Virus record (IMG/VR): IMGVR_UViG_3300020202_000062
Span: 64,001 to 128,000 of that record
From: a virus
Reading direction: 5' to 3' (one strand)
DNA length: 64,000 nt
Position 1 is the first letter of the stretch. Each line of letters begins with the position of its first letter. Both the position numbers and the translations under genes were made by a program. The notes beneath the pieces were generated by a model that did not search any database, was not told the DNA's origin, and worked only from the letters and a program-made list of their open reading frames with translations. This document shows, piece after piece, positions 9,247-47,372 of the stretch.

Positions 9247-10326
9247 TTAATCTCCCCAAGCAAAGGGAGTTTTAGGAACCCTACCCTCCATTACTTCTAC
9301 GAACACCCTCTTGTATACGGGGGCGAGTCTTTCCCATGAGATCGATTCTGCTATTTGATTAGACCATTCACTGAGTTCTTCTACTAGTTCTGGTCGCTTG
9401 TAAAGTTCATCTACCTTAGTAGCCATATCCAACTGATTGATTTCATAAACGTCAATCATACTCTTGGTCATTATCTGTTTGGAGTGTGTTGCGTCGACCA
9501 ATAATTCAGGTCTTAGGAACCCGCTCTGCGGAGATACGTTAGACATGACTGTCGGCATACCACAGGACAGAGCCTCGTTCAAGGGTAAACATAGGCCACC
9601 GAACTTCCGGGGCATGATGAAGACATCGCCCGATTCATACAGTTCTGCACTGTCTTGCGTAACCGCACTTACGATATTGATACGGCTATCCATATTACCC
9701 TTAAACCTGCTCTGCGTTCTGATTGTCAATTGAGCATCAGACTGAACGTGTCTCCACGCCTCCATTAAAGCAAGTGTACCATTCCTGTCTTCCCCCGTAG
9801 GGATACCTCCGATATGGAGGAAGTGGTTCGCTTCTGTTCTCTTTTTGAATGGAAACTGAGAACGATCTACAGGCACAGGGAGGAAGGTCTTGTTCGCAAA
9901 GGGAACATCATCAAAGCGCCATAGGCTGGGTGCCATAAACAGATCAGGCTGCGGCAAATTATGATCCCTGACGTGATCCAGGAACTCAAAGTTATATTGC
10001 AACACGGTCCTAATACCACGCTTACGTGCCTCTGTTATGAGGTAGTAGTCATACGGTGTCTCACAAGTAAATACTAGGTCTACACCGTCCAAGAACTCAT
10101 CAATGATTCGTTTAGACTCGGCACACTGGCCTCTGGTGGGTTCTGGGTACGGAGTGTACTTTAGAACCTGCGCCCCAGGGTATCTGTTCCAGTCGTTTTT
10201 CTGATTGTTAAGATGACTAAGATCTACCACCAGAGTCCTGAAAGGATTCATATGCCGGTAGAACGCATGAGTCTGCATCCCTAGCCCTGTGTAGTCCGCA
10301 CGGGCTATAAGTCCTACTCTAACCAT
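9247..10326 (-). CDS. glycosyltransferase, GT-B/GT4-like
   Basis: DVFIMP..GGLCLPLNEALSCGMP signature; start likely MVRVGLIA at 10326 (the ORF track extends to 10377). Confidence 0.9.
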   Translation of the reverse strand: MVRVGLIARADYTGLGMQTHAFYRHMNPFRTLVVDLSHLNNQKNDWNRYPGAQVLKYTPYPEPTRGQCAESKRIIDEFLDGVDLVFTCETPYDYYLITEARKRGIRTVLQYNFEFLDHVRDHNLPQPDLFMAPSLWRFDDVPFANKTFLPVPVDRSQFPFKKRTEANHFLHIGGIPTGEDRNGTLALMEAWRHVQSDAQLTIRTQSRFKGNMDSRINIVSAVTQDSAELYESGDVFIMPRKFGGLCLPLNEALSCGMPTVMSNVSPQSGFLRPELLVDATHSKQIMTKSMIDVYEINQLDMATKVDELYKRPELVEELSEWSNQIAESISWERLAPVYKRVFVEVMEGRVPKTPFAWGD

Positions 10327-12025
10327 TCTCCACCGGCCTAATATCCATATCGTACTTAGGGTCTTCACCGCGACCATCTAAGTGATAACTGCGCTTGATA
10401 TTTCCCTCCGGAGTATACATCCACAACCTATGGATATACCAGCCGTCTAAACCATTATCCTCACAAACACTATGAACCCTACCATGCATTACATCCTCAA
10501 TCATGGTCTTGCTCTCTGGATTGAAATAAGTCTTTAGCATGTGTTTGTAGTAGAAGGTGTTGGATAGGTGCGGCCTCTGACTCCATTGCATAGTGCGGCG
10601 CATAGGTACGTTATTTACGATCTGAGTCTCTTTGTCGAACATCATATGATCATGGTCCGGCAAGACTAATGCCTCGTGATGGAAACGAATAGTATACGCC
10701 TCACCCATTCTAATGGTTGTGATCATGTCGTCCCATGGTAGGGTGAAGTCTGGACACAATGGCGCATCGTGCTCTACGAAAAGAATCGTGTCTGTCTTGA
10801 CTAGATCCAAACACACACGAGTCATCTTAGCCTGGTGCATATGCTCTTCAAAGACAACAGGTAGCACGTTATGCCACTTATGATGCGCCATCCACAGAAC
10901 CCTGCGAACATACTCTTCGTAGTCTGCGACCCTGTTAGCCTGTTCTTCTCTAACTCCATCCAGCATGAGAATGATTTCACTCTCGGGTAGATGCAATCTG
11001 ATGTCTGCGATACATTTCTCTAACATCTCAGTGCTGGGGTGTGCAGGGATGACGCTGCTCGGCATCAGTACAGTTACGGTGCGGCGTTGATCCTTGCAAG
11101 GATCTAAGCCTCTAACGTCCCTGATATCATCGACCAGATCGTGCGCCATCTTACGCTTCATCTTCATCCACCACGCAAAGATTCGATTGGAAAGTTTCTT
11201 CCATTGATCTAACGCATCCATGGTGTACGGGATAAGATCAGAGTAGTTCCTGATGACAGGGAATGGAACTATCTCCCCGAAGAAGAACTGCCAGTAGTCA
11301 TCACCAAAGTCATCATTGTTCTTCGATGATTGAACTCGGGTGTCAGCCATCGGCACACACCCTGCTTCTAGTGCCTCAAATAGGCGAAAACTATCAGGAG
11401 TTTCAGGACCGGATGGAGCATAGGCTATCTTAGCCCTAGCCATTTCACGGTAGTAATCTACTGGATCTAGCCCCTGCGTGAAACCGGGCGTAGGTAAGTA
11501 GTATCCTTCTACCTCATCCTGCTCTAATAGTAACTCCAACTGCTGACCCAATTGCATACGTCGTTCGTGTGTAACTTGACCGGCGAAGTACCAGTCGTTG
11601 TCCCTCTCAGGCATGTCGATCTGTGTTAGGTACTCTCTAGCCTGTGGCGGATAGCCCGTCCCCAGAAAGCGCACGTTGTTGTATCTTTCCTGGCGACGTG
11701 GCGACATGACCCACAACTTCATGTTGGGATGGGACAGTTTCTCAAACGGAAACACTGCCTCTTCGTCTCCAGTCAGCATGAGGATGACCCAATTGAGAGG
11801 CTTGATCAGTTCGTTTAGTTGATCTATATAATGTACCTGTGCCCTAGCGGGGAAGACGATGATTGCACCGTCAGTGATTCCCTCTAGAGACTCAGTGTGT
11901 GTAAATTCTGGAAGATGAGGGGCGTCCCATAGTTCGTGACTGAACAGAGACTCTAACATTCCCTGATCCCAATACCCCCTTCCCGGAGTTGTTGGGTTCA
12001 AACTTAGCCACACAACTGGAATCAT
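10319..12025 (-). CDS. two-domain glycosyltransferase (exostosin/GT47-like + GT-A)
   Basis: APSG..SFRLFEALEAGCVP (exostosin-like) in the N-terminal half; LMLDG and LFVEHD (GT-A DxD-like) in the C-terminal half. Confidence 0.75.
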   Translation of the reverse strand: MIPVVWLSLNPTTPGRGYWDQGMLESLFSHELWDAPHLPEFTHTESLEGITDGAIIVFPARAQVHYIDQLNELIKPLNWVILMLTGDEEAVFPFEKLSHPNMKLWVMSPRRQERYNNVRFLGTGYPPQAREYLTQIDMPERDNDWYFAGQVTHERRMQLGQQLELLLEQDEVEGYYLPTPGFTQGLDPVDYYREMARAKIAYAPSGPETPDSFRLFEALEAGCVPMADTRVQSSKNNDDFGDDYWQFFFGEIVPFPVIRNYSDLIPYTMDALDQWKKLSNRIFAWWMKMKRKMAHDLVDDIRDVRGLDPCKDQRRTVTVLMPSSVIPAHPSTEMLEKCIADIRLHLPESEIILMLDGVREEQANRVADYEEYVRRVLWMAHHKWHNVLPVVFEEHMHQAKMTRVCLDLVKTDTILFVEHDAPLCPDFTLPWDDMITTIRMGEAYTIRFHHEALVLPDHDHMMFDKETQIVNNVPMRRTMQWSQRPHLSNTFYYKHMLKTYFNPESKTMIEDVMHGRVHSVCEDNGLDGWYIHRLWMYTPEGNIKRSYHLDGRGEDPKYDMDIRPVENG

Positions 12026-12711
12026 TATGTCCTCACAAAAAGTAGATTGAACTGCGGCTCTGAGAAGTCATTGTCCCACGGCCTCTTGTCGGCATCTGCA
12101 TAAAACGCCTCATAACCGCAACTAAGAATATAGTTTACCATATCTGGATAGGTGTCGTTGAAGCACGGTGAGATTTCTATCAGAGCATAGTTGATAGACT
12201 GAGTCTCAAACATGAAAGAGCATGTCTCTACGGCGAATCTGTCATTTCCTTCCAGATCGCACTTCATTAACTCAATGCCATGGGTGATAGAAAGGGTGCC
12301 GAGGGAGCCATCTATCCATTTGTGTTGGACAGAAACTAGATCCTCCACTCCGTTCATGCGTGCGTTATCTTCTAAGGTTAGAATATTCTCTTGGTCGCCC
12401 TCGTATCCCCACGCTACATGCCCATGTAGTGCGGCCAGTATACTGAACCACCCAATATGAGTGCCGAAGTCTAAAACAAGACTTTCTTCCCTTGCGTTCT
12501 GTAGAATCTCAAGCACACAACTGGTTTCGGCTGGCTCCCAAATACCATACAGAGACAACGTGTTACTTATGTCATCTTGTCCGGTGCAGTAACCCGCAAA
12601 TCCCTTGTACTTATCGTAGTCGTACACAGACATATCAAAGGATAGATCCCCCGCATGGCAGGGGACTATCTTTCTATCGTGTCTTTCGTGGCCTGCTTGA
12701 CAGGTGTTCAT
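12025..12711 (-). CDS. FkbM-family SAM methyltransferase
   Basis: GIWEP.ET, LDFGTHIGWFS, MKCDLEG motifs. Confidence 0.85.
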   Translation of the reverse strand: MNTCQAGHERHDRKIVPCHAGDLSFDMSVYDYDKYKGFAGYCTGQDDISNTLSLYGIWEPAETSCVLEILQNAREESLVLDFGTHIGWFSILAALHGHVAWGYEGDQENILTLEDNARMNGVEDLVSVQHKWIDGSLGTLSITHGIELMKCDLEGNDRFAVETCSFMFETQSINYALIEISPCFNDTYPDMVNYILSCGYEAFYADADKRPWDNDFSEPQFNLLFVRT

Positions 12712-12712
12712 C

Positions 12713-13450
12713 TTAGACCTCTGGCGTGTATAGAACGTGTAGTTCGTGCTGGTAGTCTAGGATTGTTTCCCTGTAACCGAAGTCCTTGATCCATCTACGG
12801 AACTCTGCTGCGTACTCACCGTACTGATGGAACATAAACTCAGGATGGACCGAGCCAATGATCAGTGGCTTATGCTCTCTGACCGTATTCTCTGCACCCC
12901 TCATAACCTGCCAGTCACTACCTTCGCAATCGAATGTAATGATGGTGGGGACAAGCCCAGTGCGCTTTACGTAATCATCGATCTTGATCTGAGGTACGGC
13001 GCTTGATTCTTGATATAGTTCCCTGAATCCATGATCGCCAATTACTGGACCATAGGCGCACACTGGCCAGCCGTCACGATCGCCAACTTCAAAGTCTAGG
13101 TTTGGTGGATCTTCTTCGGTGCTATTGGAAGCAAAACCTACAAAGTATCCAGCAGGTGGGATTAGGCCATTTGCGTCCCAGATAGCACGAATGTTAGGCC
13201 ATACCTTTGCATTAGGCTCAAAAAGAACAACGTCTGCTCCCCATAGGCTACAGAGTGCTGGCATCTCGCCTTCCTCTGCGCCGACATAGAAAACCATATG
13301 ATCGTCTCTCGCGCTGATGTACTCGTACATCGTGGCTAGTCTCTTCTTTTCCCAGCCTTCTGGAGTGTACCACTCAGGGCGCTGTGCCCTGTGCATGGGC
13401 AGGATGATATCAAACTGTCCATTAAGTGTTGCTAAAACCATCTCTGCCAT
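12713..13450 (-). CDS. FkbM-family SAM methyltransferase
   Basis: YVGAEEG, FEPN, IDD, DCEGSD..V.RG motifs. Confidence 0.8.
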   Translation of the reverse strand: MAEMVLATLNGQFDIILPMHRAQRPEWYTPEGWEKKRLATMYEYISARDDHMVFYVGAEEGEMPALCSLWGADVVLFEPNAKVWPNIRAIWDANGLIPPAGYFVGFASNSTEEDPPNLDFEVGDRDGWPVCAYGPVIGDHGFRELYQESSAVPQIKIDDYVKRTGLVPTIITFDCEGSDWQVMRGAENTVREHKPLIIGSVHPEFMFHQYGEYAAEFRRWIKDFGYRETILDYQHELHVLYTPEV

Positions 13451-14397
13451 TAAAATACTGTCTCCAAAATCTGCTGTGCTCTGTTTACGTAAGTGTGATG
13501 TTCTGCGGTTTTCTTGTGGCAGTAGTCGCGCACCGTCTCTCGTTTTGCGTCATCTTCCAAGAAGTACTTAATTAGGCTTTCGAGACCACCAAAATCACCC
13601 CATCTATACCATGGGATCATATCATCATACATTTCTCGTACTGCGTCAATTTGAGGCATGATGAGAAATCCACCTCTGCCGGTGGCTTCTGGTACCCTGT
13701 CCGACCAGTAATGGGACTTCTCCTTCGGTAAGCACAACGAGTCACCAACTGTGACTTTGGAACTCCGGTAGAAGTCGTTCATGTTGTGGTCGCGGTCGAT
13801 CTTCTCTTGGTCGCCACCGGGATTCTTGAAACTCCATCCATTGCGAGCGCACATGTCTCGTAGGAAGTTTACGAGTTCCTTCCGGTACATCCAAACATCC
13901 TCATGATAACCGACTCCATTAGATCCAACAAACGCCACATCGCACGCGTACTTCTCCTGGAAGGTACCCGGCGTGGTGGCATCGTGTCGTACCGCTGGAG
14001 GTAGCCATATGTGGTTCTTTCCGAATCGTTTCCACTCATCTTGATAATCTCCGTCTGCCGTGAAGATGTATGCGGTGTGGAACATAGGGTTCCTCCACCA
14101 TTGTCTGTTGCCTCTGCTTGTGCCCCAAAATGTATCTAGATGTAGAGTGGCAGTTGGCTTGTTATTCTTGGCGCACCATTGGAACACGTCCACCATGTCC
14201 ACCAGAGGTAGTGCCTCGTCCCACGTTGACGTAATCAACAGTAGATCAGCACTCTTCATAGTCCCCCAAATAGTTGCGGGATCTGTTACGTTCTCCTGTA
14301 GTTGAATGACCTCATGACCTAAGTGTTCAAAGGCTTTACGGACATCATTCTCTGTACTGTATGGAGGGCCGAAATTTCCGACGTATGCTACCCTCAC
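13450..14397 (-). CDS. glycosyltransferase (CgeB/Glyco_trans_1_2-like GT-B)
   Basis: DVAFVGS, YWSDRVPEATGRGGF, HTYVNRA motifs. Confidence 0.85.
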   Translation of the reverse strand: MRVAYVGNFGPPYSTENDVRKAFEHLGHEVIQLQENVTDPATIWGTMKSADLLLITSTWDEALPLVDMVDVFQWCAKNNKPTATLHLDTFWGTSRGNRQWWRNPMFHTAYIFTADGDYQDEWKRFGKNHIWLPPAVRHDATTPGTFQEKYACDVAFVGSNGVGYHEDVWMYRKELVNFLRDMCARNGWSFKNPGGDQEKIDRDHNMNDFYRSSKVTVGDSLCLPKEKSHYWSDRVPEATGRGGFLIMPQIDAVREMYDDMIPWYRWGDFGGLESLIKYFLEDDAKRETVRDYCHKKTAEHHTYVNRAQQILETVF

Positions 14398-14996
14398 ACT
14401 CTTCTCCTGTTTCTTGCGTCGTTCTTGATCTTATGGTACCAGTAATCTTGCTTGTTGAAGGTGCCAGTGTTGCGGCCTTCTTTACCGACCGAGATTCTAT
14501 ACACTGCTTCCGGACACTGTCCAATCGTAGCCCCGGCTTCTTCCATTCTCAGCCACAATGCCCAATCTTCAAACATGGCCTCGGGACCAAAGCCACCCAC
14601 TCGAAAGAAGATATCAGCCCTACACATAGCGCCGATGACAATATAGTTTCCTTCGACTAGTGGCTTAGATGGGATGAGCGCTGGTTCATCATCTTCTGTA
14701 CCATCAGGCCATACACCCAACGTAGAAGGCTGACGAATATCTCCTGTTCCCTCTAGCATCTTCTCGATATATCGAGGGTCAAGAGTATCATCGGCGTCCA
14801 GAAAGATGAACCAGTCCATTTCGCTCATCTGTATGGCTGCTGTATTACGAGCATTCTGAAGGTTGAGGCCGTGATGCCAAATCCAGTTGTCTGGCATTCT
14901 GGTCTGCGCTTCGATTGACGCCCATGCCGGTTCCTTCACCTTCTCCCAATGCTCCTTGTTGCCATAAGTAGCAATGATGACTCCGACCTTATCCAT
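14394..14996 (-). CDS. GT2-family glycosyltransferase
   Basis: VIIATY, ARN, FLDADD, EDWALWLR. Confidence 0.9.
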   Translation of the reverse strand: MDKVGVIIATYGNKEHWEKVKEPAWASIEAQTRMPDNWIWHHGLNLQNARNTAAIQMSEMDWFIFLDADDTLDPRYIEKMLEGTGDIRQPSTLGVWPDGTEDDEPALIPSKPLVEGNYIVIGAMCRADIFFRVGGFGPEAMFEDWALWLRMEEAGATIGQCPEAVYRISVGKEGRNTGTFNKQDYWYHKIKNDARNRRRV

Positions 14997-15685
14997 TACC
15001 AGTTACCCCACGGTTCTAGCACCGGGTCAGGATCTATGATCGACTGGATATGCTGAAGTGAGTGGAAATTACCCTGATCCAAGGTCATGTACCTCTCATA
15101 CTTTGCCTGCTTATCCTCATCCTTCATGTAACCTAAGTGTTGCATAACTAGCGGAGTATCTCGCATGAACTTACCGCGTCGAATCAGAGTCTCTACATAC
15201 ATAGGTTCCGAACCGCATGCCAACTTCTTGTCCTTGAACCTGCCGCCTAGGAAGTATCGGTACAGCCTGAAACTACCTGATGGCTTCCATGCCTTGTCAA
15301 CCCTATAGTGAGTATCGTTCCACATATGGAAGAATGTCACGTTGATTACGTCAAACATGGGCTGGCTCATTAACTTGTTGATGTTGAAGTTTGGTTGCGT
15401 ACACCACAACTTCTCGTCACAGTCAACAGACAGAATCCAATCACCTACGTCAGCGTGCTTCTGTAGGTTCTTCCATGCGGCAGTGCGGAGCAGCCCCTCA
15501 TCCTCAGTGAAGAGTGGGCGCTCGTTCTTGTAGACAGTAGCATACTTGGCGGCAATTTCTGCCGTGTTATCATCAGAAGCATCGTCGGTGAAGACGATGT
15601 GATCTACGATCGACCTCAAGTGATCTAATACTTCTTCTAAGTAACGGTCAGCCTCATTGCGACCAACCATTTGCGCCAGGAGCAT
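14996..15685 (-). CDS. GT2-like glycosyltransferase
   Basis: RNEA..L, DDASDD.T, WILSVDCDE, HLGY. Confidence 0.88.
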   Translation of the reverse strand: MLLAQMVGRNEADRYLEEVLDHLRSIVDHIVFTDDASDDNTAEIAAKYATVYKNERPLFTEDEGLLRTAAWKNLQKHADVGDWILSVDCDEKLWCTQPNFNINKLMSQPMFDVINVTFFHMWNDTHYRVDKAWKPSGSFRLYRYFLGGRFKDKKLACGSEPMYVETLIRRGKFMRDTPLVMQHLGYMKDEDKQAKYERYMTLDQGNFHSLQHIQSIIDPDPVLEPWGNW

Positions 15686-16715: not shown

Positions 16716-16756
16716 AATGCGATGGGCCGTAGTCTAGCATATGAATACAGTCAGGC

Positions 16757-17083
16757 CTAATCAAGGTAGCCAAGTCTATCAATGCACTCTATCATAGCCA
16801 CACAGCATGCTGCCACCTGGACTGCTTCGTATCTAAGGTTTTCGTCTTTGACCCCACCGAATCCATGACGATTAACTTCTGTAGCCAGTTCACCTAACTC
16901 TTCAGTGATGATACTTAGCCACTTAAAAACATCGTGATTTTGCTCACCCCACTGCTCGTCTTGTGCCTTGTTTTCTTCTAAGATTTCGCAAGTTATCTTG
17001 TGTCTACGAAGGTGCCTACCAATTTCGTATAACTTCTCTTTTATCTCAGTAAACTCTTCATATTTCTGCTCTAAGTTAGTCAT
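16757..17083 (-). CDS. MazG-like nucleotide pyrophosphohydrolase
   Basis: WGEQNH, EELGELA, EAVQVAA motifs. Confidence 0.8.
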   Translation of the reverse strand: MTNLEQKYEEFTEIKEKLYEIGRHLRRHKITCEILEENKAQDEQWGEQNHDVFKWLSIITEELGELATEVNRHGFGGVKDENLRYEAVQVAACCVAMIECIDRLGYLD

Positions 17084-17882
17084 GTTCGATGCCAAGGGTA
17101 TCACATGCCTCTCTAAATATCTTCTGGCTCTTTAAGAAGAGCGGTCTTAGTTTTGGGTCGGGGCCATTAGTTGAAGCCATCCACGTGTGACCTATTGAAA
17201 TGTTTCCGTCGTACCATACGTTATACCCAAGATGGCGGGCGAAGTATGAACACCACGTTTCCTCAAAGTAATGGGGAGTAGGAAGGAATGCACCCGTTGT
17301 ACCAGGGAACATATTCTGATACCTGGCGTTGTTGGTCATGGCATTCCACACGGAACGCTTGATGAAGTATGCAGATCCTGAGATGGTTACGCACTCAATA
17401 CGATCCTTGTATAGTTTATCTTCTGGATCGTGTTCATTCCATCCACGATGGCGTGGCTTTGTGTTCTCTCCGATTATCCCGGCGTGTCGGATGTAACCGT
17501 TCTCGTCACGTTGTTTGGGTCCTAGGATATGCTGGTTTGGGTATCTCTCGAATGATAGGAAAACCTCAATTAAATCCTGCTCTGTCAACCATACGTCAGC
17601 ATTAAGGAGTCCAATGATCCAACTCTTGCCTTTTGACGCCAACTGATTACATGCTGCCGAGTAGCCAATGTTCTCATTGAGATAAAGGTCTTCCTCATCT
17701 AAACACAAGTAAGTCCTTGTAGCCTCTTGTAGAAACTCTGCTGTTCCATCAGTAGATCCGTTGTCGGCAATACGCAACTTGTACGAGGGCATGCAGGCGG
17801 TGGTTGATTCTAGTGTGTCTAGAAATCTCTCAATTTCATTTCGATTGTTGTGAGAGACTACACACAGATCAATCGCTGTCAT
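17076..17882 (-). CDS. GT2-family glycosyltransferase (rhamnosyltransferase-like)
   Basis: DNGSTDGT, NIGYSAACN, LLNAD, SGSAY, YFEE. Confidence 0.9.
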   Translation of the reverse strand: MTAIDLCVVSHNNRNEIERFLDTLESTTACMPSYKLRIADNGSTDGTAEFLQEATRTYLCLDEEDLYLNENIGYSAACNQLASKGKSWIIGLLNADVWLTEQDLIEVFLSFERYPNQHILGPKQRDENGYIRHAGIIGENTKPRHRGWNEHDPEDKLYKDRIECVTISGSAYFIKRSVWNAMTNNARYQNMFPGTTGAFLPTPHYFEETWCSYFARHLGYNVWYDGNISIGHTWMASTNGPDPKLRPLFLKSQKIFREACDTLGIEHD

Positions 17883-40800: not shown

Positions 40801-42978
40801 GGTCCAGGCGGCAGGAATAACGCTGTCACCAAGATCCTCTGGAACTTCTACATTAGGGTTAGTTACCTCAATCTGATAGGTTCTTGTTGCTCCACGAACG
40901 CGCTCTAAATCAGCAGCAGAGATGCTAGAATCAATGATTTGCTTAAGTGTCTGCTCTGAAAGTATGCGCTGCCATACGTTTGTGGGAGTTGCTGATGCAG
41001 TTGTGAGAGATACGAACCTATTGGCGTCCTTCTCGCGCTGTGATAACGCCTCTCCATCAATAACCCATGAAGCCTTCCAAGGCGAAGAGAATGTCCATGA
41101 GGTTGAGTAGTCTGTCTCATCCCTTCCATCTAAGGCGCGATCTTTGACGGCCAGAAGGCAGAGATTGTAGAAGAACTTGTACGCACCCTCTACGGTGCTT
41201 GAATTAACATAACGGTTGTAGTCTGCCCTTGAAACTTCGTGCCCAGCAGTATCGAATCGATTACGTGCAACACGCTTACCGGTTACATGAGAGAACAGCA
41301 TGTTAACTGCCTCAAGTGAACCGATCGTAGAGAAGATCAAATGCCCACCATTTAAGGTTGGCTTGTGTAAGAGACACGGCTTGTACTGACCAGAGTTATT
41401 CTGGGCTTCCATAAGTACGATGTAGTCACCTGGGTAATCTAAGATGTACTGGCAGTAGCCATCCCCGAATGTTCCATATCCACCGTTCTTATATGGTGAT
41501 ATTGAGTTGTATTCATCGTCTGAGCCGTCATTAAAGTTCCATCCACCGTACTCTTGATCTGCGTTCCACAAGAAGTACTCGTCATTCTTTGGTCGGATGG
41601 TACCTCCATCGATCCATCCATAGTCGCCTTCTTCGGAGATACGGCTAGCGTCAGCGGCATTAACGGCACATGTAGTCTCGATACCGAGTCCCTCTGGGAC
41701 GGTGTGGTTGTGCATGTCAATGATAAGAGTCTTTCCTAGTTGTTCGGTGAAGTATCTGATCTTCTGCATGTACGGCTGGAAGTCGAATGAAAGCACCCTT
41801 GGGCACCACAGTAGTATGTCGAATTTCCTTAGGTCGCTGTAACTAATATCATCAAAGTCAACGGTCCAGTAATCTTCGTCTTCCTGGTCATCGACAGATG
41901 CAGTATCTTCCTCGTCGGTGTGTAGAGGATTGATGAACTGAATCTCGGTGGCGTTGTAATCACTACGCATGAGATTGAGGAATGCGTAGGTGGCATCGCT
42001 GTGTCTATTTCCGTCGGTGATGATAACACCGGCTTTGATGGCTGCGGCTTCCTTGGATGGATCTACTGTGTAGTTCTCTGTGAAGCTAGCCTTTACTCTC
42101 CATCTGAACAGTTGGAAGATGCGCGGATCAGCCATAGCCTTCTTGGGCACAAAGATGCGATATCCTTCTACGTCCGGATGAGGCTCACCTAGGATCTGTT
42201 CCTTCAGGGTGGCTGGCTTTGTTGAGTACCACTTCTTGTTGCGGTTGTTTAGATCTACTACGTCAGACTCTTCTGGCCTGTATGAGTAGTATGCCTGAGG
42301 ATTTAGGATCTCTTTGTATGAGAGTTCCTGATTCTTCAACTTGCCGTCAGTGCCTACCTCGACCTTATTGTAGGTTAGGTACAGGTTCTCGTTGTCGTCT
42401 ACATCCACAAAAGCCCAGACACGATAAGCGTCTGTAGTTTGGTCGGTATCTTCAACTGTGGTATTTGCTGGTGTTATGCGGATTTTGTATCGCGCCCTAC
42501 CCTGCTCATCTACATAGTCACGCCCATCGGCGTCTACCACTTTGATGTCTTCAAGTTCGAAAGTCCTTAGTTCTGATCCTAAGGTCAACCCCTGAAAGTC
42601 TACATGGAAGTAACGGCTTACGTGGACGTAAGGCAAGATTGAGTCTGATGTGTACTCAGATCCTGGGGTGGATAAGAAGTCTTCATCTATTGTGAATACG
42701 TCAGCGACAGCAGGGAACTCGTCCTCCACTATCTGATTACCGCTCTCGTCCTCTAGAATGCCCATTCGGTTGGCATACATGATTCGATACTGGTCTGCTA
42801 CTGACACAGTGTTCTCTTCGACCACATTTGATGTGTCGACAATTACCACATTCTTAGATGGGGTCAGTGATGGCGATTGAATCCAGGCAAGATTGACAGC
42901 ATCCTCGGGGACTCTTACGCCTCGCCTAAATGCCTTTTCATTACCTTCGGTACTTCTGTCTTCAAACGCCTTCATCAC
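37801..42978 (-). CDS. large tail/baseplate protein with peptidoglycan-binding domain (1725 aa)
   Basis: L.KG..G...VKFVQ...NG.YD..TEEAIKQFQ...NGVVDAETWAAI (PG_binding_1-like, about 40110-40360); C-terminal DTRRRGGG. Confidence 0.75.
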   Translation of the reverse strand: MMKAFEDRSTEGNEKAFRRGVRVPEDAVNLAWIQSPSLTPSKNVVIVDTSNVVEENTVSVADQYRIMYANRMGILEDESGNQIVEDEFPAVADVFTIDEDFLSTPGSEYTSDSILPYVHVSRYFHVDFQGLTLGSELRTFELEDIKVVDADGRDYVDEQGRARYKIRITPANTTVEDTDQTTDAYRVWAFVDVDDNENLYLTYNKVEVGTDGKLKNQELSYKEILNPQAYYSYRPEESDVVDLNNRNKKWYSTKPATLKEQILGEPHPDVEGYRIFVPKKAMADPRIFQLFRWRVKASFTENYTVDPSKEAAAIKAGVIITDGNRHSDATYAFLNLMRSDYNATEIQFINPLHTDEEDTASVDDQEDEDYWTVDFDDISYSDLRKFDILLWCPRVLSFDFQPYMQKIRYFTEQLGKTLIIDMHNHTVPEGLGIETTCAVNAADASRISEEGDYGWIDGGTIRPKNDEYFLWNADQEYGGWNFNDGSDDEYNSISPYKNGGYGTFGDGYCQYILDYPGDYIVLMEAQNNSGQYKPCLLHKPTLNGGHLIFSTIGSLEAVNMLFSHVTGKRVARNRFDTAGHEVSRADYNRYVNSSTVEGAYKFFYNLCLLAVKDRALDGRDETDYSTSWTFSSPWKASWVIDGEALSQREKDANRFVSLTTASATPTNVWQRILSEQTLKQIIDSSISAADLERVRGATRTYQIEVTNPNVEVPEDLGDSVIPAAWTIAYTPKFEVPIDLGPHVIREELVTGDFEEGQYVYREYPPKPYGVQVRVNYNATAQDSTEETVDWTASGTAKLTREVTEYENVTVDDDTEIIMSWSSHGKNKTTFTSGRAFDQGTKHPNYLRTWQDDNYYGDEKGTLAGGLLSWPFWGATVRLEKGGSGNISDWVKFVQMTMNKLKFFGFLKNTEYLEVNGRYDNSSNGKKTEEAIKQFQTKCHLRFRNGVVDAETWAAIGYQVINLGSLVGPTSSRDYTKFYDWPKGRIMKKHISDWNAQTYYAKRSDLKNSPGNIWDVFSVELDDRYKIHGVKITPYLEGNSKQMLLHAIDVKTHSAPGPFHLGGYDMGKARVTSLGLPIPDGPGTYFPVGPYEGNVVIVGVGQNGKSGWGDSRMLGIKDILIYGKGKKTERREVVRQVTINNYPINASGRNVVVRSGYDTTVQANPHDYASGTLSDVNWTNITVNNPKVSIVGATSSGLIRLRNNIVVNHVNSRYTFGPEYEPGSSETWYSMDENGNRRIAPESGWIRKTDGIKLLCDADGKPAGFPAMPTSVGTNETQRHYMSLSVDLTTNDASVFVGFYDKRKKEFIVNSSGIPEMTYMEYLDRGPENVYVGVISNYELNTTNTLPVSADAPKIPFRWAMPVYGVKVKSGAQIQIEPLPENLGAADVWPVPVRIGSFNRKVKIRPRNQGPLDGYLGSYQGSDVRAFYSIPESELGGWSTLHGRPNVDIKGEHPVVIDETTIQLRQAPLLMVKEPSNVSSSYADPVRPALKVYTRSTASSPWTELSWPDIADYNASTGEITLASPLASDEANLVKVDYTTKRSVYNFKQYDGRYLNLNPNPGNTRNLVGRPVYIYIVPAFVKDSNGSVITDSVNTRTLRFRMDTNIFDPLDPEYDPLAVQLGVVYIAPALDINDLVILDTRRRGGGAKDSLNLEEIRRMVSESIGYWDIGFGGGVSYQKGGFVIIRLPEELKTQFPKEQEIINVIERNITAGVRYKLEDLHGRSWT

Positions 42979-45900
42979 TAAACATCCCTGTAGTCCGGGT
43001 GCATCGACTGCAAACCATCTAACGTAACATCATAAAACCCTGAACCTAAGAAGCCCAACTGGTACTGGTCGTATCGCGGAATTGCGTACCAAGCCGGTGG
43101 CTCCCATTCTATAGTAACAGGTGTCGCTGCGCTATTAGGAGTTGCTTCGTCATAATAAACAGGATATCCGTTTATATCAGAGTAATATGGGTTAGTGTCT
43201 GCTGCGTTTGCCATCTGGACTAGAGGAACCGACAGATTGGTGAAGCCCTCTGAGCCGTATTGGAGATCAGGTGTCTCCAGCCAGAATACAACGTCACCAA
43301 CCATGTCGTATTGAGGGGTTGCCGATGCAGAGACTCTGTCTGTTTCGACCATGACAAACCAGTAACCTGGATCCCATGGCGTTGCAGCCGTGAAGGGACC
43401 CACGGTGAATCGTCCCAATGAATCTGCGGTGACCGACCCATCGTATGGTAGGTCTGTGTTTAGTACTGTGTAGATATCCCTACCCTTACGGTAGTTAACC
43501 TTGGCCGAGGCTACTGGTAGCCGAGATGAATTCTCAACCTTACCGAATACCCTAACCTTGGTCAATCCATCGGCAGGGATGGTGTCTACTTCGGGTAGGG
43601 CAGTCAACCTATAAGATGGGGTGGCTGACTGTTCAATGTCGAAGTTGAATGAGGCAGATACGTCACCGGTGATGGTCACTGTTCCTGTCATACTCGCAGT
43701 AGAACCGCCAGCGGTCAGGAATACAACTGCGCTACCGTTATCGTCTGTCAATACAACGAAGTTGGAACTTGATCCATTTCCGCTTGGGATAGCGAATCCG
43801 TCCGCATCCGTGACAGGGATATCGAACTCTCCCCATGAGGTGCTCATGTTGAAGGTTTGGTTTGGCTTAGGATTGCCATACTCATCAACCGAACGAATAG
43901 TGATAAGCATATAATCCTGGCCGTCTGCCAGAAGTTTAGATGGGCTGTACCTTACTTCGATTCCTGCTAACGAGTACTCTTCAAACGAGATGAAGAGGAA
44001 CCCTTCTTCCACTGTCGTATAGAATGTGTTTAGCGGCACGTCGATTGGTGTAGCCTCATCGTATACTGAGTCCTCATAGGTTACAGTATACCCACTTGCA
44101 CCGAAGTCTACAGGCAACTTATCGAAGACCAACTTAGTTCTTTGGCTGCCGTCAGTATGGATGTAATCGTTGTATGCGTAGAATGAACGGTTGAGTTTGT
44201 ATGTTACTTCGTAGATCTTGTCGCGATCGGTTACACCTACAGTACTGATTTCGTTTGTAAATGTCTCAGTGTCGGCCTCAACAGGTAGACCGGTCTCTAG
44301 ATCTGTCACGGAAACCTCATACAGATCTTCGTAACCCAGGAACAGTTTGTTGGTGCCCGACCCGTAAACATTCTGCTTACCACGGAGAGTTAGTCCTGGC
44401 GTTGCAGTGTCATAGAATGCTACCTGACGCATCAACTGTGGACTGGCTTCGTCGGTATACACAATAATGGGAGCACCCTGGCGAGCGACTGACTCAAGCA
44501 CTGGTGTGGCTGAAGTGACTGTCTCGTCCTTGCGATTGGCATATAGGTAGTATTCGCTCTCTCGGTCATAGAACCACCCAGAGTGAACCTGTGGATGCCA
44601 TGCCGGGTGAATGCCTGGGCGTAGGCGTGCTCGGATTGCTATAGGAGAGTATGCATACACTTCCGAATCGTCATCCCACTCCTCCTCGATAGCATCATCG
44701 GGGTAAGTAACTGATGTTCCATCATCAAAAGCGGGCTTAACTGTGTTGCTATCCATCCATACAATAACGTTGTCGTTATCTAAGACTTCTGCGCCCATCC
44801 AGGTTACAACGAAGTTCTCGGTATTGGGAATGTTGAAGTCATCCCTATTGAGGATAAGGCTAGTCAAGTAGAAGTTCGTGTTGCCAATAGGGGCAGGCAC
44901 TCCGTTTCTCCATGGACCGTTCTCGTCTACGTATCCCTCTACTTCTGTGGTTTGTGTTGCCTCGAAGATATTCCACTGACCACTCGCCACTGGGTAATCT
45001 GTAGCACCAGAGCCTATAGAGAATTCTAGGGTTGTAACAGCCGTTGAGAACTGCCTGACTCCCGCCCCATCCCAGTTGGCACTGCCATTGACTAGTAGAT
45101 ATTCCTTCGAAATGAAGGTTGAGTTAAAGTCGGGGTCAACAACATATGCTCCGTGTGTGCCGTCATCGTCCTGAGTAATGATTTCAACTTCATACTTCTT
45201 ATTTGGAGTTGCTTCCAGATATGGGTTCCATGAAATTTCCGGAATGGTGATTGTCATACTCTGCTGAGTAAGATCAGGCACTGCTCCATTCATGAGGATG
45301 TTGAACATCTGCTTCTCTGACTTCCATCTACCAATAGTGTAGGAAGTTGTTAGCGGTTCAAATACAACACTAGGGGTTCCTGAACCACCGTAGGTTAGTG
45401 CAGTCTGAGCATTGTTTGCTGTCAACTTCGACGCAGAGTTATCTGACCACCATGCTCTGGCATTGCCAGTTGTGGGGAAGTCTGCAAATGCTTGGATATC
45501 TGGATTGAATCTACCGAAGTAAAGAGCAACAGAGTCCACATCGTTAATATGAATAGAAAATGGTGTAGCGGCTGAAGTATCGTATTCGTTACCTGACGCA
45601 TCGTACCAAATCTGCTCATCGTCCAGGTGTCCGTCTTCTGCCCAGATCCTGTAGGTTGCGTAGCAGTTGGCTGTATTTGTGGGGTTGGCTGCGTCTACGT
45701 TGCTCTTGCTTGAGAGTTGGAAACTGTGGTAGTAGACAGATGGTGTCGCTGCTGAGTCGGTGATTCGGACCGTCAGCCAGTCTTCCACTGTCGGATTGTC
45801 GTATACTTTACGGTCAGCAGATCCGTAGATGTAAACGTCTGCTGCAACCTTTGGATATAAGTTGACTGAGTCGCGCTGTCTACCTCGGGCCTTTAGCCTA

Positions 45901-47372
45901 ACAGTAAACTGCTGCGTGCCACCTGGTGCGTCTGGTCGGATAACCAATAGGTCGTCACCATCACCAACACCAGTCTGAATGTATTCTTCCGGAACTGGCG
46001 TAGCATCTAGCCTATATGGCAGGACTGCATATCCCTCGTTCTCTAGGCCACCAACATCCCAGAACGATTGCTGCCACTTGAAGTATCCCCAGGTCGTTGG
46101 GTACTTTTCGGCAAGTTGTTCAACCAATGAATAGAATCTTGGGTTTGGCACATTGTCATATCCCATATACGGGGTTGCGCCGTCTACATCGTCTTCGATG
46201 TCAGACATCTCTAAAACGTACGGTGTAGCCCCTGCATAGTTTGAGTCAGGAGTTGCGCCGAACGCCTGCCACAGATTGAGTTCTCGACGTAGAGCCAACT
46301 TGAATGCTTCGACGCCAACACCTGGCCTATTGATATGCACGTCGAGAATACGGATCTTGTACGTTTCATTATCTTCTAGGAGGTGGCGGTCAAGGTCTAC
46401 CATTAGACCAAAGTCATCGAACCAGTTCCATACATGATGGGGATTCTGATTGTAGATTTCTTCGTTGAGTTCTAGATTCTCATACGACTTGCGAGTGTAG
46501 ACAACCCTCTTGAGTTCATCCCAGAAGAATACATCTTCATCTTCTCCTGCGGCATAAAACTCTTCTAGGCTGGCTGTGCGAGCCAACTGAACGTCATCGC
46601 CAACAATGCTCCACAGAACCTCGGGAGCGTCAGCCGCAGCGTACACCCAGGCAACCTGAGTTACATCTGCCGTATCAATATAACGCTGTAGGTCCAAGTA
46701 GTTAAGACCGTAATCTAGATCATCTAGCCACTGACCGGCTACTGCATTGACTAACTGTGCGCCTACGCTAAGTGGGGTAGCAGACTCGGAGTCTAGATCG
46801 CGAGTCTCCATCCATTCTGGGAATGTATCCAGAACGGTTCTGGTTCGGTCGTAGAGTGGTGCCATGACTGGAGTGTCAATCTCAATACGAATCAGAACCT
46901 CTACGCCAATATCAGCGGTGTCTAGTGTGGTGTTTAACCTCAATACAAACCTAGCGTATCTGTAAGAATCAATGATGAAGATAGGATTATTGGCATAGTT
47001 GTTAGTCTGGCTTGCCCACTCATCTGGATACTCTAAGTCGGGATCGTCAATGGTGTAGATATCAAGTATGGGAGTGATATCACCTGTTCCGGGGAGATTT
47101 GTAAACTCCACCTGATACGACATGATGTCGATGCGGCCACTGTAATCAATGTAGCGGCCAGAAGAGATAATTCCGGAGTCTGTTACGTTTGCAGATATTT
47201 GATTGATACCCGTCCAGGTGCGATCACCCAGAGAGTTTAGACCATAGTTTGACTTGGTAGTCGAGTAGTTCTTGTAAACATCATTATTATACAGGTCTAT
47301 AACCTCAGAAGACCAGACCGCACCGGCCTGGTCAAAATCATCCTGAGTTAGACGTAAGTAGTAAACCTTCAC
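42978..47372 (-). CDS. large baseplate protein with Ig-like domains and 16 Ala-Thr-Pro motifs (1464 aa)
   Basis: FDDFGL..DL.R...EDN..YK.RI wedge-like motif; ADG....I...D.YGNP Big_1-like domains; downstream of baseplate J. Confidence 0.75.
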   Translation of the reverse strand: MKVYYLRLTQDDFDQAGAVWSSEVIDLYNNDVYKNYSTTKSNYGLNSLGDRTWTGINQISANVTDSGIISSGRYIDYSGRIDIMSYQVEFTNLPGTGDITPILDIYTIDDPDLEYPDEWASQTNNYANNPIFIIDSYRYARFVLRLNTTLDTADIGVEVLIRIEIDTPVMAPLYDRTRTVLDTFPEWMETRDLDSESATPLSVGAQLVNAVAGQWLDDLDYGLNYLDLQRYIDTADVTQVAWVYAAADAPEVLWSIVGDDVQLARTASLEEFYAAGEDEDVFFWDELKRVVYTRKSYENLELNEEIYNQNPHHVWNWFDDFGLMVDLDRHLLEDNETYKIRILDVHINRPGVGVEAFKLALRRELNLWQAFGATPDSNYAGATPYVLEMSDIEDDVDGATPYMGYDNVPNPRFYSLVEQLAEKYPTTWGYFKWQQSFWDVGGLENEGYAVLPYRLDATPVPEEYIQTGVGDGDDLLVIRPDAPGGTQQFTVRLKARGRQRDSVNLYPKVAADVYIYGSADRKVYDNPTVEDWLTVRITDSAATPSVYYHSFQLSSKSNVDAANPTNTANCYATYRIWAEDGHLDDEQIWYDASGNEYDTSAATPFSIHINDVDSVALYFGRFNPDIQAFADFPTTGNARAWWSDNSASKLTANNAQTALTYGGSGTPSVVFEPLTTSYTIGRWKSEKQMFNILMNGAVPDLTQQSMTITIPEISWNPYLEATPNKKYEVEIITQDDDGTHGAYVVDPDFNSTFISKEYLLVNGSANWDGAGVRQFSTAVTTLEFSIGSGATDYPVASGQWNIFEATQTTEVEGYVDENGPWRNGVPAPIGNTNFYLTSLILNRDDFNIPNTENFVVTWMGAEVLDNDNVIVWMDSNTVKPAFDDGTSVTYPDDAIEEEWDDDSEVYAYSPIAIRARLRPGIHPAWHPQVHSGWFYDRESEYYLYANRKDETVTSATPVLESVARQGAPIIVYTDEASPQLMRQVAFYDTATPGLTLRGKQNVYGSGTNKLFLGYEDLYEVSVTDLETGLPVEADTETFTNEISTVGVTDRDKIYEVTYKLNRSFYAYNDYIHTDGSQRTKLVFDKLPVDFGASGYTVTYEDSVYDEATPIDVPLNTFYTTVEEGFLFISFEEYSLAGIEVRYSPSKLLADGQDYMLITIRSVDEYGNPKPNQTFNMSTSWGEFDIPVTDADGFAIPSGNGSSSNFVVLTDDNGSAVVFLTAGGSTASMTGTVTITGDVSASFNFDIEQSATPSYRLTALPEVDTIPADGLTKVRVFGKVENSSRLPVASAKVNYRKGRDIYTVLNTDLPYDGSVTADSLGRFTVGPFTAATPWDPGYWFVMVETDRVSASATPQYDMVGDVVFWLETPDLQYGSEGFTNLSVPLVQMANAADTNPYYSDINGYPVYYDEATPNSAATPVTIEWEPPAWYAIPRYDQYQLGFLGSGFYDVTLDGLQSMHPDYRDV

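What the first reader, a model, noticed from the sequence alone, without database searches (positions are those of the whole stretch)
42978..47372. Sixteen dispersed Ala-Thr-Pro motifs in one baseplate protein: candidate phage O-glycosylation sequon
Seen: I count 16 A-T-P tripeptides (ESATP, FGATP, AGATP, DGATP, LDATP, SAATP x3, LEATP, TSATP, DTATP, DEATP x2, QSATP, TAATP, ASATP) plus one EASP in 1464 aa. A rough estimate from A/T/P frequencies gives about 0.4 by chance. The flanking sequences are unrelated and the codons vary (GCA ACT CCT, GCT ACA CCG, GCT ACG CCA, GCG ACA CCA, GCC ACA CCA), so this is protein-level selection for a short linear motif, not a DNA repeat. Single copies occur in other virion proteins (LDATP in 26243-26635, ASATP in 37801-42978, MGATP in 26649-29102). 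Established: Thr near Pro/Ala is a typical O-glycosylation context, and some mycobacteriophages (e.g. Che8) glycosylate virion proteins with their own glycosyltransferases. Inference: small/acidic-A-T-P is the acceptor sequon for the phage's glycosyltransferase cluster, giving a glycan-coated baseplate.
Basis: partly seen in the sequence, partly recalled or inferred. Interest (0 to 1): 0.9.

Follow-up and report, generated by a model that had tools for sequence, protein, structure and literature searches.

The report
Ala-Thr-Pro tag on phage baseplate protein
One large outer tail protein of an uncultured 159-kb phage carries 16 scattered copies of the three-residue tag Ala-Thr-Pro (chance gives 0.5); about 220 relatives keep the tag and a few lineages lost it as a block, so some other factor probably reads it, most likely a phage sugar-adding enzyme, though no chemistry has been shown.

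Summary
The 1464-aa ORF lies on the minus strand at 42978-47372 and has 16 Ala-Thr-Pro (ATP) tripeptides against 0.52 expected. All are in frame and use varied codons.

It is a family trait. Of 228 distinct full-length homologues, 222 carry 6-21 ATP, 6 carry 0-1, and none carries 2-5. About 22 sites are positionally conserved. A further 102 alignment columns hold lineage-specific ATP, and these show the same flanks: D/E at -3, small residues at -2, K/R excluded. The block losses arose at least four times; one ATP-poor protein is 55% identical to a sister with 19 sites. The tag also marks unrelated tail fibres and an Ig-like head protein in relatives. Neighbouring baseplate proteins have none or are depleted.

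All 16 sites fall in predicted loops. Three GT-A glycosyltransferases are core genes of the clade. Outgroup Bacillus and Moorella jumbo phages lack both the GT2 genes and the tag.

Best reading: an enzyme-read sequon, most likely for Thr O-glycosylation by phage glycosyltransferases. The chemistry is untested. The genomes of the tag-less lineages could not be fetched. Most of the local GT cluster is not conserved with the tag.

This scan has already noted the same tag in other genomes of this phage group.

The parts
42978..47372 (-). 1464-aa ATP-rich outer baseplate/tail protein. It has an N-terminal jelly-roll (1-170), a helical/mixed middle part, and a C-terminal chain of Ig/macroglobulin-like beta-sandwiches that includes Big_1/Invasin_D3 at 1139-1235.
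   Evidence: homologous to ORF162 of Bacillus phage 0305phi8-36, annotated as a virion protein
46773..46781 (-). ATP site, residues 198-200 (ESATPL). Conserved column, 41 of 71 homologues.
   Evidence: coil, pLDDT about 61
46248..46256 (-). ATP site 373-375 (FGATPD). Conserved, 51 of 71, Thr in 67. The only site kept in P0044 and P0047.
46221..46229 (-). ATP site 382-384 (AGATPY). The most conserved site, 67 of 71. The only site kept in P0243.
46170..46178 (-). ATP site 399-401 (DGATPY). Lineage-specific, unique to this protein among the 72 aligned.
45996..46004 (-). ATP site 457-459 (LDATPV). Conserved, 34 of 71.
45741..45749 (-). ATP site 542-544 (SAATPS). In the hairpin loop between strands 530-539 and 545-554, pLDDT about 86. 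Sporadic column, 6 of 57.
45561..45569 (-). ATP site 602-604 (SAATPF). Conserved, 28 of 56.
45204..45212 (-). ATP site 721-723 (LEATPN). Semi-conserved, 9 of 56.
44502..44510 (-). ATP site 955-957 (TSATPV). Sporadic, 2 of 53. Loop after a strand, pLDDT about 96.
44397..44405 (-). ATP site 990-992 (DTATPG). Conserved, 39 of 61.
44046..44054 (-). ATP site 1107-1109 (DEATPI). Conserved, 52 of 72.
43617..43625 (-). ATP site 1250-1252 (QSATPS). Hairpin loop of an Ig-like domain. Sporadic, 6 of 72.
43377..43385 (-). ATP site 1330-1332 (TAATPW). Conserved, 32 of 72.
43314..43322 (-). ATP site 1351-1353 (ASATPQ). 14 of 46.
43137..43145 (-). ATP site 1410-1412 (DEATPN). Conserved, 28 of 71. In the low-confidence C-terminal tail.
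43119..43127 (-). ATP site 1416-1418 (SAATPV). Conserved, 48 of 72. In the low-confidence C-terminal tail.
17076..17882 (-). Core GT2 glycosyltransferase, 268 aa. It has orthologues in all three complete relatives (44-56% identity) and more than 450 database clusters (top 120 at 54-61% identity). Candidate writer or elongating enzyme.
14996..15685 (-). Core GT2 / Glyco_tranf_2_4 glycosyltransferase, 229 aa. It has orthologues in all three complete relatives (50-53% identity). Candidate writer or elongating enzyme.
9247..14996 (-). Accessory glycan cassette found only in this phage among the four genomes compared: GT4, an Exostosin/RXYLT1-like 568-aa protein, two FkbM-type methyltransferases, a CgeB-like Glyco_trans_1_2 and a short GT2. 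If the tag is glycosylated, this cassette is probably a lineage-specific glycan tailoring set and not the conserved writer.

Best explanation
[D/E]-[G/S/A]-Ala-Thr-Pro, with Ser tolerated at -1 and, less often, at the Thr position, is a sequon: a short linear tag in surface loops of outer virion proteins that a trans-acting phage enzyme reads in the cytoplasm during late infection. The most likely chemistry is O-glycosylation of the Thr hydroxyl. One of the three clade-conserved GT-A glycosyltransferases would start it: the GT2 genes at 17076-17882 and 14996-15685, or the 254-aa GT-A between scaffold/protease and portal at genome C1:151313-152077. The others, together with lineage-specific cassettes such as 9247-14996, would extend and methylate the glycan. 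The result would be a glycan coat on the baseplate periphery, the tail fibres and an Ig-like head protein. Shown here: the enrichment; its protein-level nature; family-wide maintenance with positional turnover; shared flanks at independent sites; loop location; presence in non-homologous outer proteins with absence or depletion in inner ones; all-or-none block losses; and clade-level co-occurrence with GT genes.
For: (1) 16 ATP against 0.52 expected, in frame only, with varied codons.
(2) Of 228 distinct full-length homologues, 222 have 6-21 ATP, 6 have 0-1 and none has 2-5. Family-wide observed/expected ratios: ATP 32, STP 7.9, ASP 3.5, GTP 0.9, TAP 0.4.
(3) Turnover: 22 conserved columns, plus 102 columns with ATP in 3 or fewer of 72 sequences (161 occurrences against 16-32 for the permutations APT, TAP and PTA). 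Pairs at 42-49% identity share only about half of their sites.
(4) Independently gained sites have the same flanks as conserved ones: D/E 32% at -3 (background 13%), small residues 53% at -2, and K/R 1 of 204 at -3/-2 (12.9 expected).
(5) At least four independent block losses sit inside tag-rich clades. P0243 is 55.5% identical to P0046 but keeps 1 of its 19 sites, often by changing Thr alone (LATPT to LAEPT, PATPV to PAKPI, QATPL to QANPI).
(6) The same tag is enriched in non-homologous tail fibres (11 and 8 ATP) and in an Ig-like 256-264-aa protein next to the major capsid protein in complete relatives. In about 100-170 related loci the target family has 2299 [AS]TP against 113 expected. 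The adjacent 1725-aa family has 60 against 78, Baseplate_J 3 against 17.9 and the gp25-like protein 0 against 4.4.
(7) All 16 sites lie in DSSP coil of the AlphaFold models; several are in confident hairpin loops.
(8) 20 of 20 relatives' records have at least 2 GT2 genes. Two GT2 genes and a third GT-A inside the head operon are core genes. Four complete outgroup jumbo phages have no GT2, and their homologues carry 0-1 ATP.
(9) No conserved kinase or prolyl hydroxylase and no ThyA-like hydroxymethylase that would point to DNA glycosylation.
Against: No chemical evidence of any modification exists, and the phage and its host are uncultured. The GT co-occurrence is confounded by phylogeny: one clade with both traits against one outgroup with neither. 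The decisive contrast, GT content of the six tag-less lineages, could not be made because their contigs were unreachable. The two core GT2 genes lie beside DnaB, PD-(D/E)XK and HD genes, not in the tail module, so they could serve DNA, lipid or cell-wall targets. No known bacterial O-glycosylation sequon is A-T-P. Thr-Pro and Asp/Asn-Pro are also common turn formers, and D, N and S often replace the Thr in alignment columns.
Confidence: 0.55

Rival explanations
1. The tag is a sequon for a different post-translational modification of Thr or Pro, such as phosphorylation, AMPylation, ADP-ribosylation, acylation or hydroxylation, or a site for a processing enzyme. A phage or host enzyme other than a glycosyltransferase would read it.
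For: All the evidence for a trans-acting reader says nothing about the chemistry. Acidic residues often occupy the Thr position in homologues and in tag-less lineages, as is seen at evolving phosphosites.
Against: No protein kinase and no 2OG prolyl hydroxylase is conserved across the four genomes. Three GTs are conserved. Sixteen cleavage sites in one structural protein would be implausible.
Confidence: 0.13
2. The tag is a docking code: an unmodified linear motif bound by a partner protein, such as an assembly chaperone, a decoration or cement protein, or a prolyl isomerase. The partner recognises many loops on outer virion proteins.
For: This reading predicts the same signature: trans-dependence, turnover, shared flanks, loop location and block loss when the partner is lost. 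An earlier scan note raised the same alternative.
Against: A three-residue core is short for protein-protein recognition. The strict need for Thr, with Ser 4-fold and Ala/Gly far less frequent, and the surgical loss of Thr alone point to the hydroxyl as the functional group. No candidate binding partner was identified.
Confidence: 0.12
3. The tag is a purely structural or folding motif, a Thr-Pro (ST/Asx-Pro type) turn favoured in the loops of this fold. No reader exists, and lineages lose it through drift in loop composition.
For: All sites are in coil, often at strand ends. D, N and S, the classic turn formers, substitute for Thr in many columns. About 22 sites are positionally conserved, and one (residue 383) is nearly invariant.
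Against: A turn does not explain several observations. Ala is near-obligatory at -1 (xTP: A enriched 10-fold, G 0.27, V 0.18). K/R is excluded at independent sites. The same tag occurs in unrelated fibre and head proteins while Baseplate_J is depleted. The distribution is bimodal at 0-1 against 6-21. One protein lost 18 of 19 sites at 55% identity, keeping A and P but not T.
Confidence: 0.1
4. The tag is real, but the conserved GT2 genes have nothing to do with it. They would glycosylate phage DNA or host envelope components, and the tag would be read by a host enzyme.
For: The GT2 genes sit next to replication genes. Phage GTs that hypermodify DNA are documented (bioRxiv 10.1101/2023.12.21.572611, listed). 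A DNA methylase lies inside the cluster.
Against: No ThyA-type hydroxymethylase was found in four genomes, three of them complete. FkbM sugar methyltransferases and CgeB-, EXT- and GT4-type enzymes fit glycan assembly. A third GT-A is embedded between the portal and scaffold genes.
Confidence: 0.1

Closest known systems
Virion O-glycosylation of mycobacteriophages (Che8 and relatives) by phage-encoded glycosyltransferases. Source: Freeman et al. 2023, Cell Host Microbe 31:1216, as cited in PMC13445384. The paper itself was not held, so details are from memory.
   Same: Phage-encoded cytoplasmic GTs, accompanied by methyltransferases, are proposed to decorate exposed virion proteins. The GT genes lie outside the structural operon.
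   Different: In Che8 the modification was demonstrated chemically, and (from memory) it maps to C-terminal stretches of capsid and tail-tube subunits with no defined tripeptide sequon. Here nothing is demonstrated chemically. There is instead a sharply defined, dispersed A-T-P tag on baseplate, fibre and Ig-like head proteins of jumbo myophages, with all-or-none evolutionary behaviour.
Defined bacterial glycosylation sequons: Bacteroidota O-glycosylation D-(S/T)-(A/I/L/V/M/T) and Campylobacter PglB N-sequon D/E-X-N-X-S/T (from memory); O-OTase glycotags such as WPAAASAP for PglL (PMC12645811).
   Same: A short motif centred on the acceptor residue, an upstream acidic preference, placement in exposed or disordered segments, and many sites per target.
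   Different: Those systems act in the periplasm through lipid-linked glycans and oligosaccharyltransferases. This one would have to be cytoplasmic and sequential. The motif itself, Ala at -1 and Pro at +1, matches none of them. According to the review, cytoplasmic flagellin O-GTs (Maf) have no recognised sequon.
Cytoplasmic multi-site glycosylation of large adhesins: HMW1C N-glycosylating HMW1 at many N-X-S/T sites (PMC3012730, listed).
   Same: A soluble GT modifies one very large surface protein at dozens of copies of a simple sequon before export or assembly.
   Different: That system is N-linked on Asn, uses a GT41 enzyme, and targets a bacterial adhesin, not a phage virion.
ORF162 of Bacillus phage 0305phi8-36 and related baseplate-adjacent structural proteins of Bacillus and Moorella jumbo phages; PHROG 21059.
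   Same: Homologous central module (residues about 160-510; tblastn E 1e-13 to 4e-13, 24-25% identity). Same position just after the Baseplate_J gene and before the FN3 tail fibre. Annotated as a virion protein.
   Different: Those proteins are much shorter (372-590 aa), carry 0-1 ATP, and their genomes have no GT2.

Membership tests
Phage virion glycosylation system (Che8 type) | Phage genome encodes glycosyltransferases | tested here: met
   Pfam Glycos_transf_2, Glyco_tranf_2_4, Glyco_trans_1_4, Glyco_trans_1_2 and an Exostosin-like match, most above their cut-offs. A third core GT-A was identified through the ESM Atlas.
Phage virion glycosylation system (Che8 type) | Glycan covalently attached to virion proteins, shown by mass spectrometry or glycan staining | not testable with these tools
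   The phage is uncultured and no proteomic data are available.
Phage virion glycosylation system (Che8 type) | Modification depends on the phage GT genes | tested here: inconclusive
   Clade level: 20 of 20 tag-rich records have GT2, and 4 of 4 outgroup genomes without the tag have none. The six tag-less in-group lineages could not be examined.
Enzyme-read sequon (short linear modification motif) | Motif far above compositional expectation, at protein level and not DNA level | tested here: met
   16 against 0.52 expected; family observed/expected 32; frame-0 only; synonymous codons vary.
Enzyme-read sequon (short linear modification motif) | Number maintained while positions turn over; independent sites share flanking preferences | tested here: met
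   102 sporadic columns; sharing of about 50% at 42-49% identity; the same D/E(-3), small(-2) and no-K/R rule at sporadic and conserved columns.
Enzyme-read sequon (short linear modification motif) | Occurs in unrelated target proteins and is absent or avoided in non-targets of the same proteome | tested here: met
   Tail fibres and the Ig-like head protein are enriched; the 1725-aa neighbour and the tape-measure-like protein are at chance; Baseplate_J (3 against 17.9) and the gp25-like protein (0 against 4.4) are depleted.
Enzyme-read sequon (short linear modification motif) | Sites are solvent-exposed | tested here: inconclusive
   All 16 sites are in DSSP coil, several in confident hairpin loops. 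No coordinates were available to compute accessibility, and four sites lie in low-confidence segments.
Bacteroidota general O-glycosylation sequon D-(S/T)-(A/I/L/V/M/T) | Asp immediately before the acceptor and an aliphatic, Ala or Thr residue after it | tested here: not met
   Here -1 is Ala (or Ser) and +1 is Pro. Among xTP tripeptides D is 0.17-fold of expectation (DTP is rare), and among ATx tripeptides P is enriched 12-fold.
   The sites are spread over a jelly-roll, a helical region, Ig-like domains and the tail, at irregular spacing. Six full-length homologues keep the fold-defining residues but hold 0-1 sites.
0305phi8-36 ORF162-like baseplate-adjacent virion protein (PHROG 21059) | Sequence homology and synteny after Baseplate_J | tested here: met
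   tblastn E 1e-13 to 4e-13; phrog_21059 E 3e-26; Baseplate_J at 48308-49453; the same gene order in 0305phi8-36, WH1 and KLEB27-3.

The most novel reading that the evidence does not exclude
A large clade of uncultured, mostly freshwater jumbo phages uses a genetically encoded, three-residue O-glycosylation sequon, [D/E]-[G/S/A]-A-T-P. A small soluble phage GT-A enzyme would read it in the cytoplasm and so place a glycan coat on chosen loops of the baseplate, fibres and head decoration. The system behaves as an evolutionary on/off module: when the writer is lost, the sequons are purged. It would be the first defined sequon for a cytoplasmic protein O-glycosyltransferase of a bacterial virus, and a compact, portable tag-plus-enzyme pair for glycoengineering.
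Probability: 0.45. Interest if true: 0.85.

Novelty: new variant of a known kind. Interest (0 to 1): 0.72.

Why it matters
Phage virion glycosylation has been demonstrated only in a few mycobacteriophages, and no acceptor rule is known. Cytoplasmic bacterial O-glycosyltransferases generally lack a recognisable sequon. If A-T-P is a real sequon, it becomes possible to predict from sequence alone which virion surfaces are coated. Hundreds of environmental phage genomes could then be scanned for the trait. It would also give a minimal tag-enzyme pair that can be tested in E. coli. The repeated all-or-none losses offer a ready comparative test for identifying the writer gene. If the tag turns out to mark a different modification or a docking code, it is still an unrecognised layer of information in phage structural proteins.

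Tried and rejected
DNA-level repeat or DNA motif: rejected, because the pattern is in frame 0 only and uses varied codons.

Compositional artefact: rejected by shuffles, permutation tripeptides and expected counts.

Proteome-wide sequon in this phage: not the case. The rest of the window proteome is at chance (5 against 3.8). Genome-wide there are 32 ATP against 10.4 expected, and 16 of them are in this protein.

Whole local GT cluster as the conserved writer: rejected. Only 2 of its 8 glycan-cluster genes are core.

ThyA-type route to DNA glycosylation: no hit.

Reaching the tag-less lineages failed in every way tried:
- IMG/VR scans with P0044, P0047, P0243, P0246, P0248 and P0249 found nothing.
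- Scans with alignment A2 (headed by the tag-less P0044) of IMG/VR and of metagenome contigs, and with A1 (headed by the window protein) of IMG/VR, returned only tag-rich homologues.
- GTDB contigs gave one tag-rich hit.
- GenBank phages gave only distant outgroups.

I tried to match contig lengths between the GT2-268 homologue list and P0044's 84,063-bp contig. The list was cut at 120 of 451 rows and was uninformative.

Fold search of the N-terminal part gave only weak jelly-roll matches, Z at most 7.5.

The Freeman et al. paper was not held.
Full report
**Observation.** The ORF at window 42978-47372 is read on the minus strand (GTG start, 1464 aa). It contains 16 Ala-Thr-Pro (ATP) tripeptides, at residues 198, 373, 382, 399, 457, 542, 602, 721, 955, 990, 1107, 1250, 1330, 1351, 1410 and 1416. 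Its own composition predicts 0.52, and no shuffle out of 20000 exceeded 5. Of 20 TP dipeptides, 16 follow Ala; of 19 AT dipeptides, 16 precede Pro. The DNA pattern GCN-ACN-CCN occurs 16 times in the coding frame, never in the other two frames and never on the antisense strand. Codon choice mirrors the gene's general usage, so the selection acts on the peptide. The other 47 ORFs of the window hold 5 ATP against 3.8 expected. The whole 158,928-bp virus record holds 32 against 10.4, half of them in this one protein.

**What the protein is.** The gene follows a Baseplate_J gene (48308-49453), separated from it only by a 301-aa insert. It precedes a 1725-aa protein with a peptidoglycan-binding domain and further large tail genes.
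- Its central part (residues about 160-510) is homologous to ORF162 of Bacillus phage 0305phi8-36 and to proteins of related Bacillus and Moorella jumbo phages. Those sit in the same place, after Baseplate_J and before the FN3 tail fibre, and are annotated as virion proteins.
- AlphaFold2 models were built on 72-sequence alignments, with mean pLDDT 77 for residues 1-730 and 80 for residues 700-1464.
- They show an N-terminal jelly-roll (weak matches to podophage tail proteins, Z 7.5), a helical/mixed middle part, and a C-terminal chain of Ig/macroglobulin-like beta-sandwiches. The sandwiches match alpha-2-macroglobulin, invasin/intimin and the lambda tail tip.
- 'Outer baseplate protein' is therefore a reasonable label, resting on synteny and fold.

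**The tag is a family trait.** Protein and DNA searches gave 228 distinct full-length homologues at 25-50% identity, mostly from lake and other environmental metagenomes. Of these, 222 carry 6-21 ATP, 6 carry 0-1, and none carries 2-5. Over 213 distinct sequences, ATP is 32-fold over expectation, STP 7.9-fold and ASP 3.5-fold. GTP, VTP, PTP, ATA, ATS and the permutations TAP and PTA are at or below expectation.

**Conserved and moving sites.** In a 72-sequence alignment, 22 columns hold ATP in at least 10 sequences; the site at residue 383 is present in 67 of 71. A further 102 columns hold ATP in three or fewer sequences, 161 occurrences in all. The composition-matched permutations APT, TAP and PTA give only 16-32 occurrences. 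Pairs of tag-rich proteins at 42-49% identity share roughly half of their sites. The number is therefore maintained while positions turn over.

**A shared extended rule.** I took one representative per alignment column, to limit phylogenetic redundancy.
- The 102 sporadic columns show D/E at -3 in 32% (background 13%) and G/S/A/T at -2 in 53% (background 30%).
- K/R occurs once in 204 positions at -3 and -2 (12.9 expected), and K/R is low through +5.
- The 22 conserved columns show the same pattern.

Independent gains converging on the same flanks are what a common reader predicts. A fold-specific turn would not produce them.

**Block losses.** The six tag-poor proteins are not one clade.
- P0044 and P0047 are sisters (support 1.0) nested among proteins with 9-19 ATP.
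- P0243 is the sister (support 1.0) of P0046, which has 19 ATP.
- P0248 is the sister of P0237 and P0242, with 11 each.
- P0246 and P0249 branch separately.

This makes at least four independent losses. P0243 and P0046 are 55.5% identical, yet only 1 of 19 sites survives. Several sites changed at Thr alone within otherwise conserved context (LATPT to LAEPT, DPATPVD to DPAKPID, DEQATPLSEQ to DEQANPISEQ). P0044 and P0047 likewise show GATPE changed to GAYPE and similar. The fold does not need the Thr. The bimodal on/off distribution is the signature of dependence on a trans-acting factor.

**Other carriers and non-carriers.** I fetched three complete relatives (231, 210 and 210 kb, with terminal repeats).
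- The next most enriched proteins are non-homologous tail fibres: 1618 aa with FN3 domains and 11 ATP, and 1247 aa with a collagen-like tract and 8 ATP.
- A 256-264-aa protein is encoded immediately after the major capsid protein gene. It has three positionally conserved sites, and the ESM Atlas gives Ig-like Big_5 as a lead.

Across 100-170 related loci the target family has 2299 [AS]TP against 113 expected. The adjacent 1725-aa family has 60 against 78 and the tape-measure-like giant 35 against 40. Baseplate_J has 3 against 17.9 and the gp25-like protein 0 against 4.4. The tag thus marks peripheral proteins and is avoided in tightly packed inner baseplate proteins.

**Structure mapping.** All 16 Thr lie in DSSP coil of the models, where about 60% of residues are coil. 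Several lie in confident hairpin or strand-end loops: residues 542, 955, 990, 1250 and 1330, with pLDDT 81-96. Four lie in low-confidence flexible segments.

**Candidate writers.** The window holds a GT-rich stretch at 9247-17882.
- Comparison with the three complete relatives shows that only two of its genes are core: GT2/Glyco_tranf_2_4 at 14996-15685 and GT2 at 17076-17882.
- The other six glycan genes have no counterpart in those relatives: GT4, an Exostosin/RXYLT1-like protein, two FkbM methyltransferases, a CgeB-like GT and a short GT2. Nor does the DNA methylase at 15903-16715.
- A third core enzyme lies outside the window, between the scaffold/protease-like gene and the portal gene (genome C1:151313-152077, 254 aa). 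Pfam misses it. The ESM Atlas places it with viral Glyco_tranf_2_4/GT25-N-like GT-A proteins (feature score 0.99; structural TM 0.82-0.92), and phmmer gives a non-significant best hit to procollagen galactosyltransferase.
- All 20 relatives' records searched have at least two GT2 genes.
- Four complete outgroup jumbo phages (0305phi8-36, WH1, KLEB27-3 and Moorella MTATph1) have none, and their homologous proteins carry 0-1 ATP.
- No kinase or 2OG prolyl hydroxylase is conserved. No ThyA-like hydroxymethylase was found, which a classical DNA-glycosylation route would need.

**Limits.**
- The GT link is correlative and amounts to a single phylogenetic contrast.
- The core GT2 genes lie next to DnaB-, PD-(D/E)XK- and HD-type genes.
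- The one comparison that could settle the question could not be made.
I treat that as an untested lead.
- No chemistry is known.

**Comparison with the known.** Phage-encoded virion O-glycosylation is established for mycobacteriophage Che8 (Freeman et al. 2023, cited in PMC13445384; the paper itself was not held). To my knowledge it has no tripeptide sequon. Known bacterial O-sequons and glycotags differ in sequence and act through periplasmic oligosaccharyltransferases, and cytoplasmic flagellin O-GTs have no recognised sequon (PMC12645811). Literature searches found no description of an A-T-P tag in phages. The same tag has, however, been noted several times by this scan in other genomes of this phage group, so it is new to the literature I could search but not new to the scan.

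**Verdict.** The sequon idea is well supported as 'a tag read by a trans-acting factor' (about 0.8). O-glycosylation by the conserved phage GTs is the leading chemistry (about 0.55) but is unproven. The attribution to the whole local GT cluster is wrong in detail.

Noticed in passing
window 47391-48296 (-): A 301-aa gene sits between Baseplate_J and the ATP-rich gene. It matches a DNA polymerase exonuclease subunit (phrog_403, E 1e-86; Pfam RNase_H_2) and carries a C-terminal zinc ribbon. Only 2 of about 160 related loci have a counterpart there, so it looks like a recent insertion, possibly a mobile or homing-type gene, in the tail operon.
   Followed up: partly
window 9247-16715 (-): An accessory glycan cassette (GT4, a 568-aa Exostosin/RXYLT1-like protein, two FkbM methyltransferases, a CgeB-like GT, a short GT2) and an N6/N4 DNA methylase (15903-16715) flank the two core GT2 genes. 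The cassette lies just 3' of the GT2 at 14996-15685, and the methylase lies between the two GT2 genes. Neither is present in three complete relatives.
   Followed up: partly
related loci, homologues of window 48308-49453 and 49453-49836: The Baseplate_J and gp25-like families are depleted in [AS]TP (3 against 17.9 expected; 0 against 4.4). This suggests the tag is avoided in inner baseplate proteins.
   Followed up: partly
G013:C1:158000-170000 and 58020-58313: One complete relative carries eight 2OG-Fe(II) oxygenase (PF13640) genes. Seven are clustered, and one lies directly beside its ATP-rich tail-fibre gene. None was found in the other three genomes.
   Followed up: no
L202 (CAZBTQ010000001.1, 210,765 bp): A whole phage-sized contig of this family is binned in a MAG labelled uncultured Iamiaceae (Acidimicrobiia). 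This is a weak hint at an actinobacterial host, or simply a binning artefact.
   Followed up: no
window 17076-17882 (-): The core GT2 is far better conserved than the structural protein. It has more than 450 database clusters, and the 120 best are 54-61% identical, against 27-48% for the ATP-rich protein.
   Followed up: partly
window 37801-42978 (-): The neighbouring 1725-aa protein has a PG_binding_1 domain (residues 900-955) and [AS]TP at or slightly below chance across 133 homologues (60 against 78 expected). It may be an inner or cell-wall-engaging tail component.
   Followed up: no
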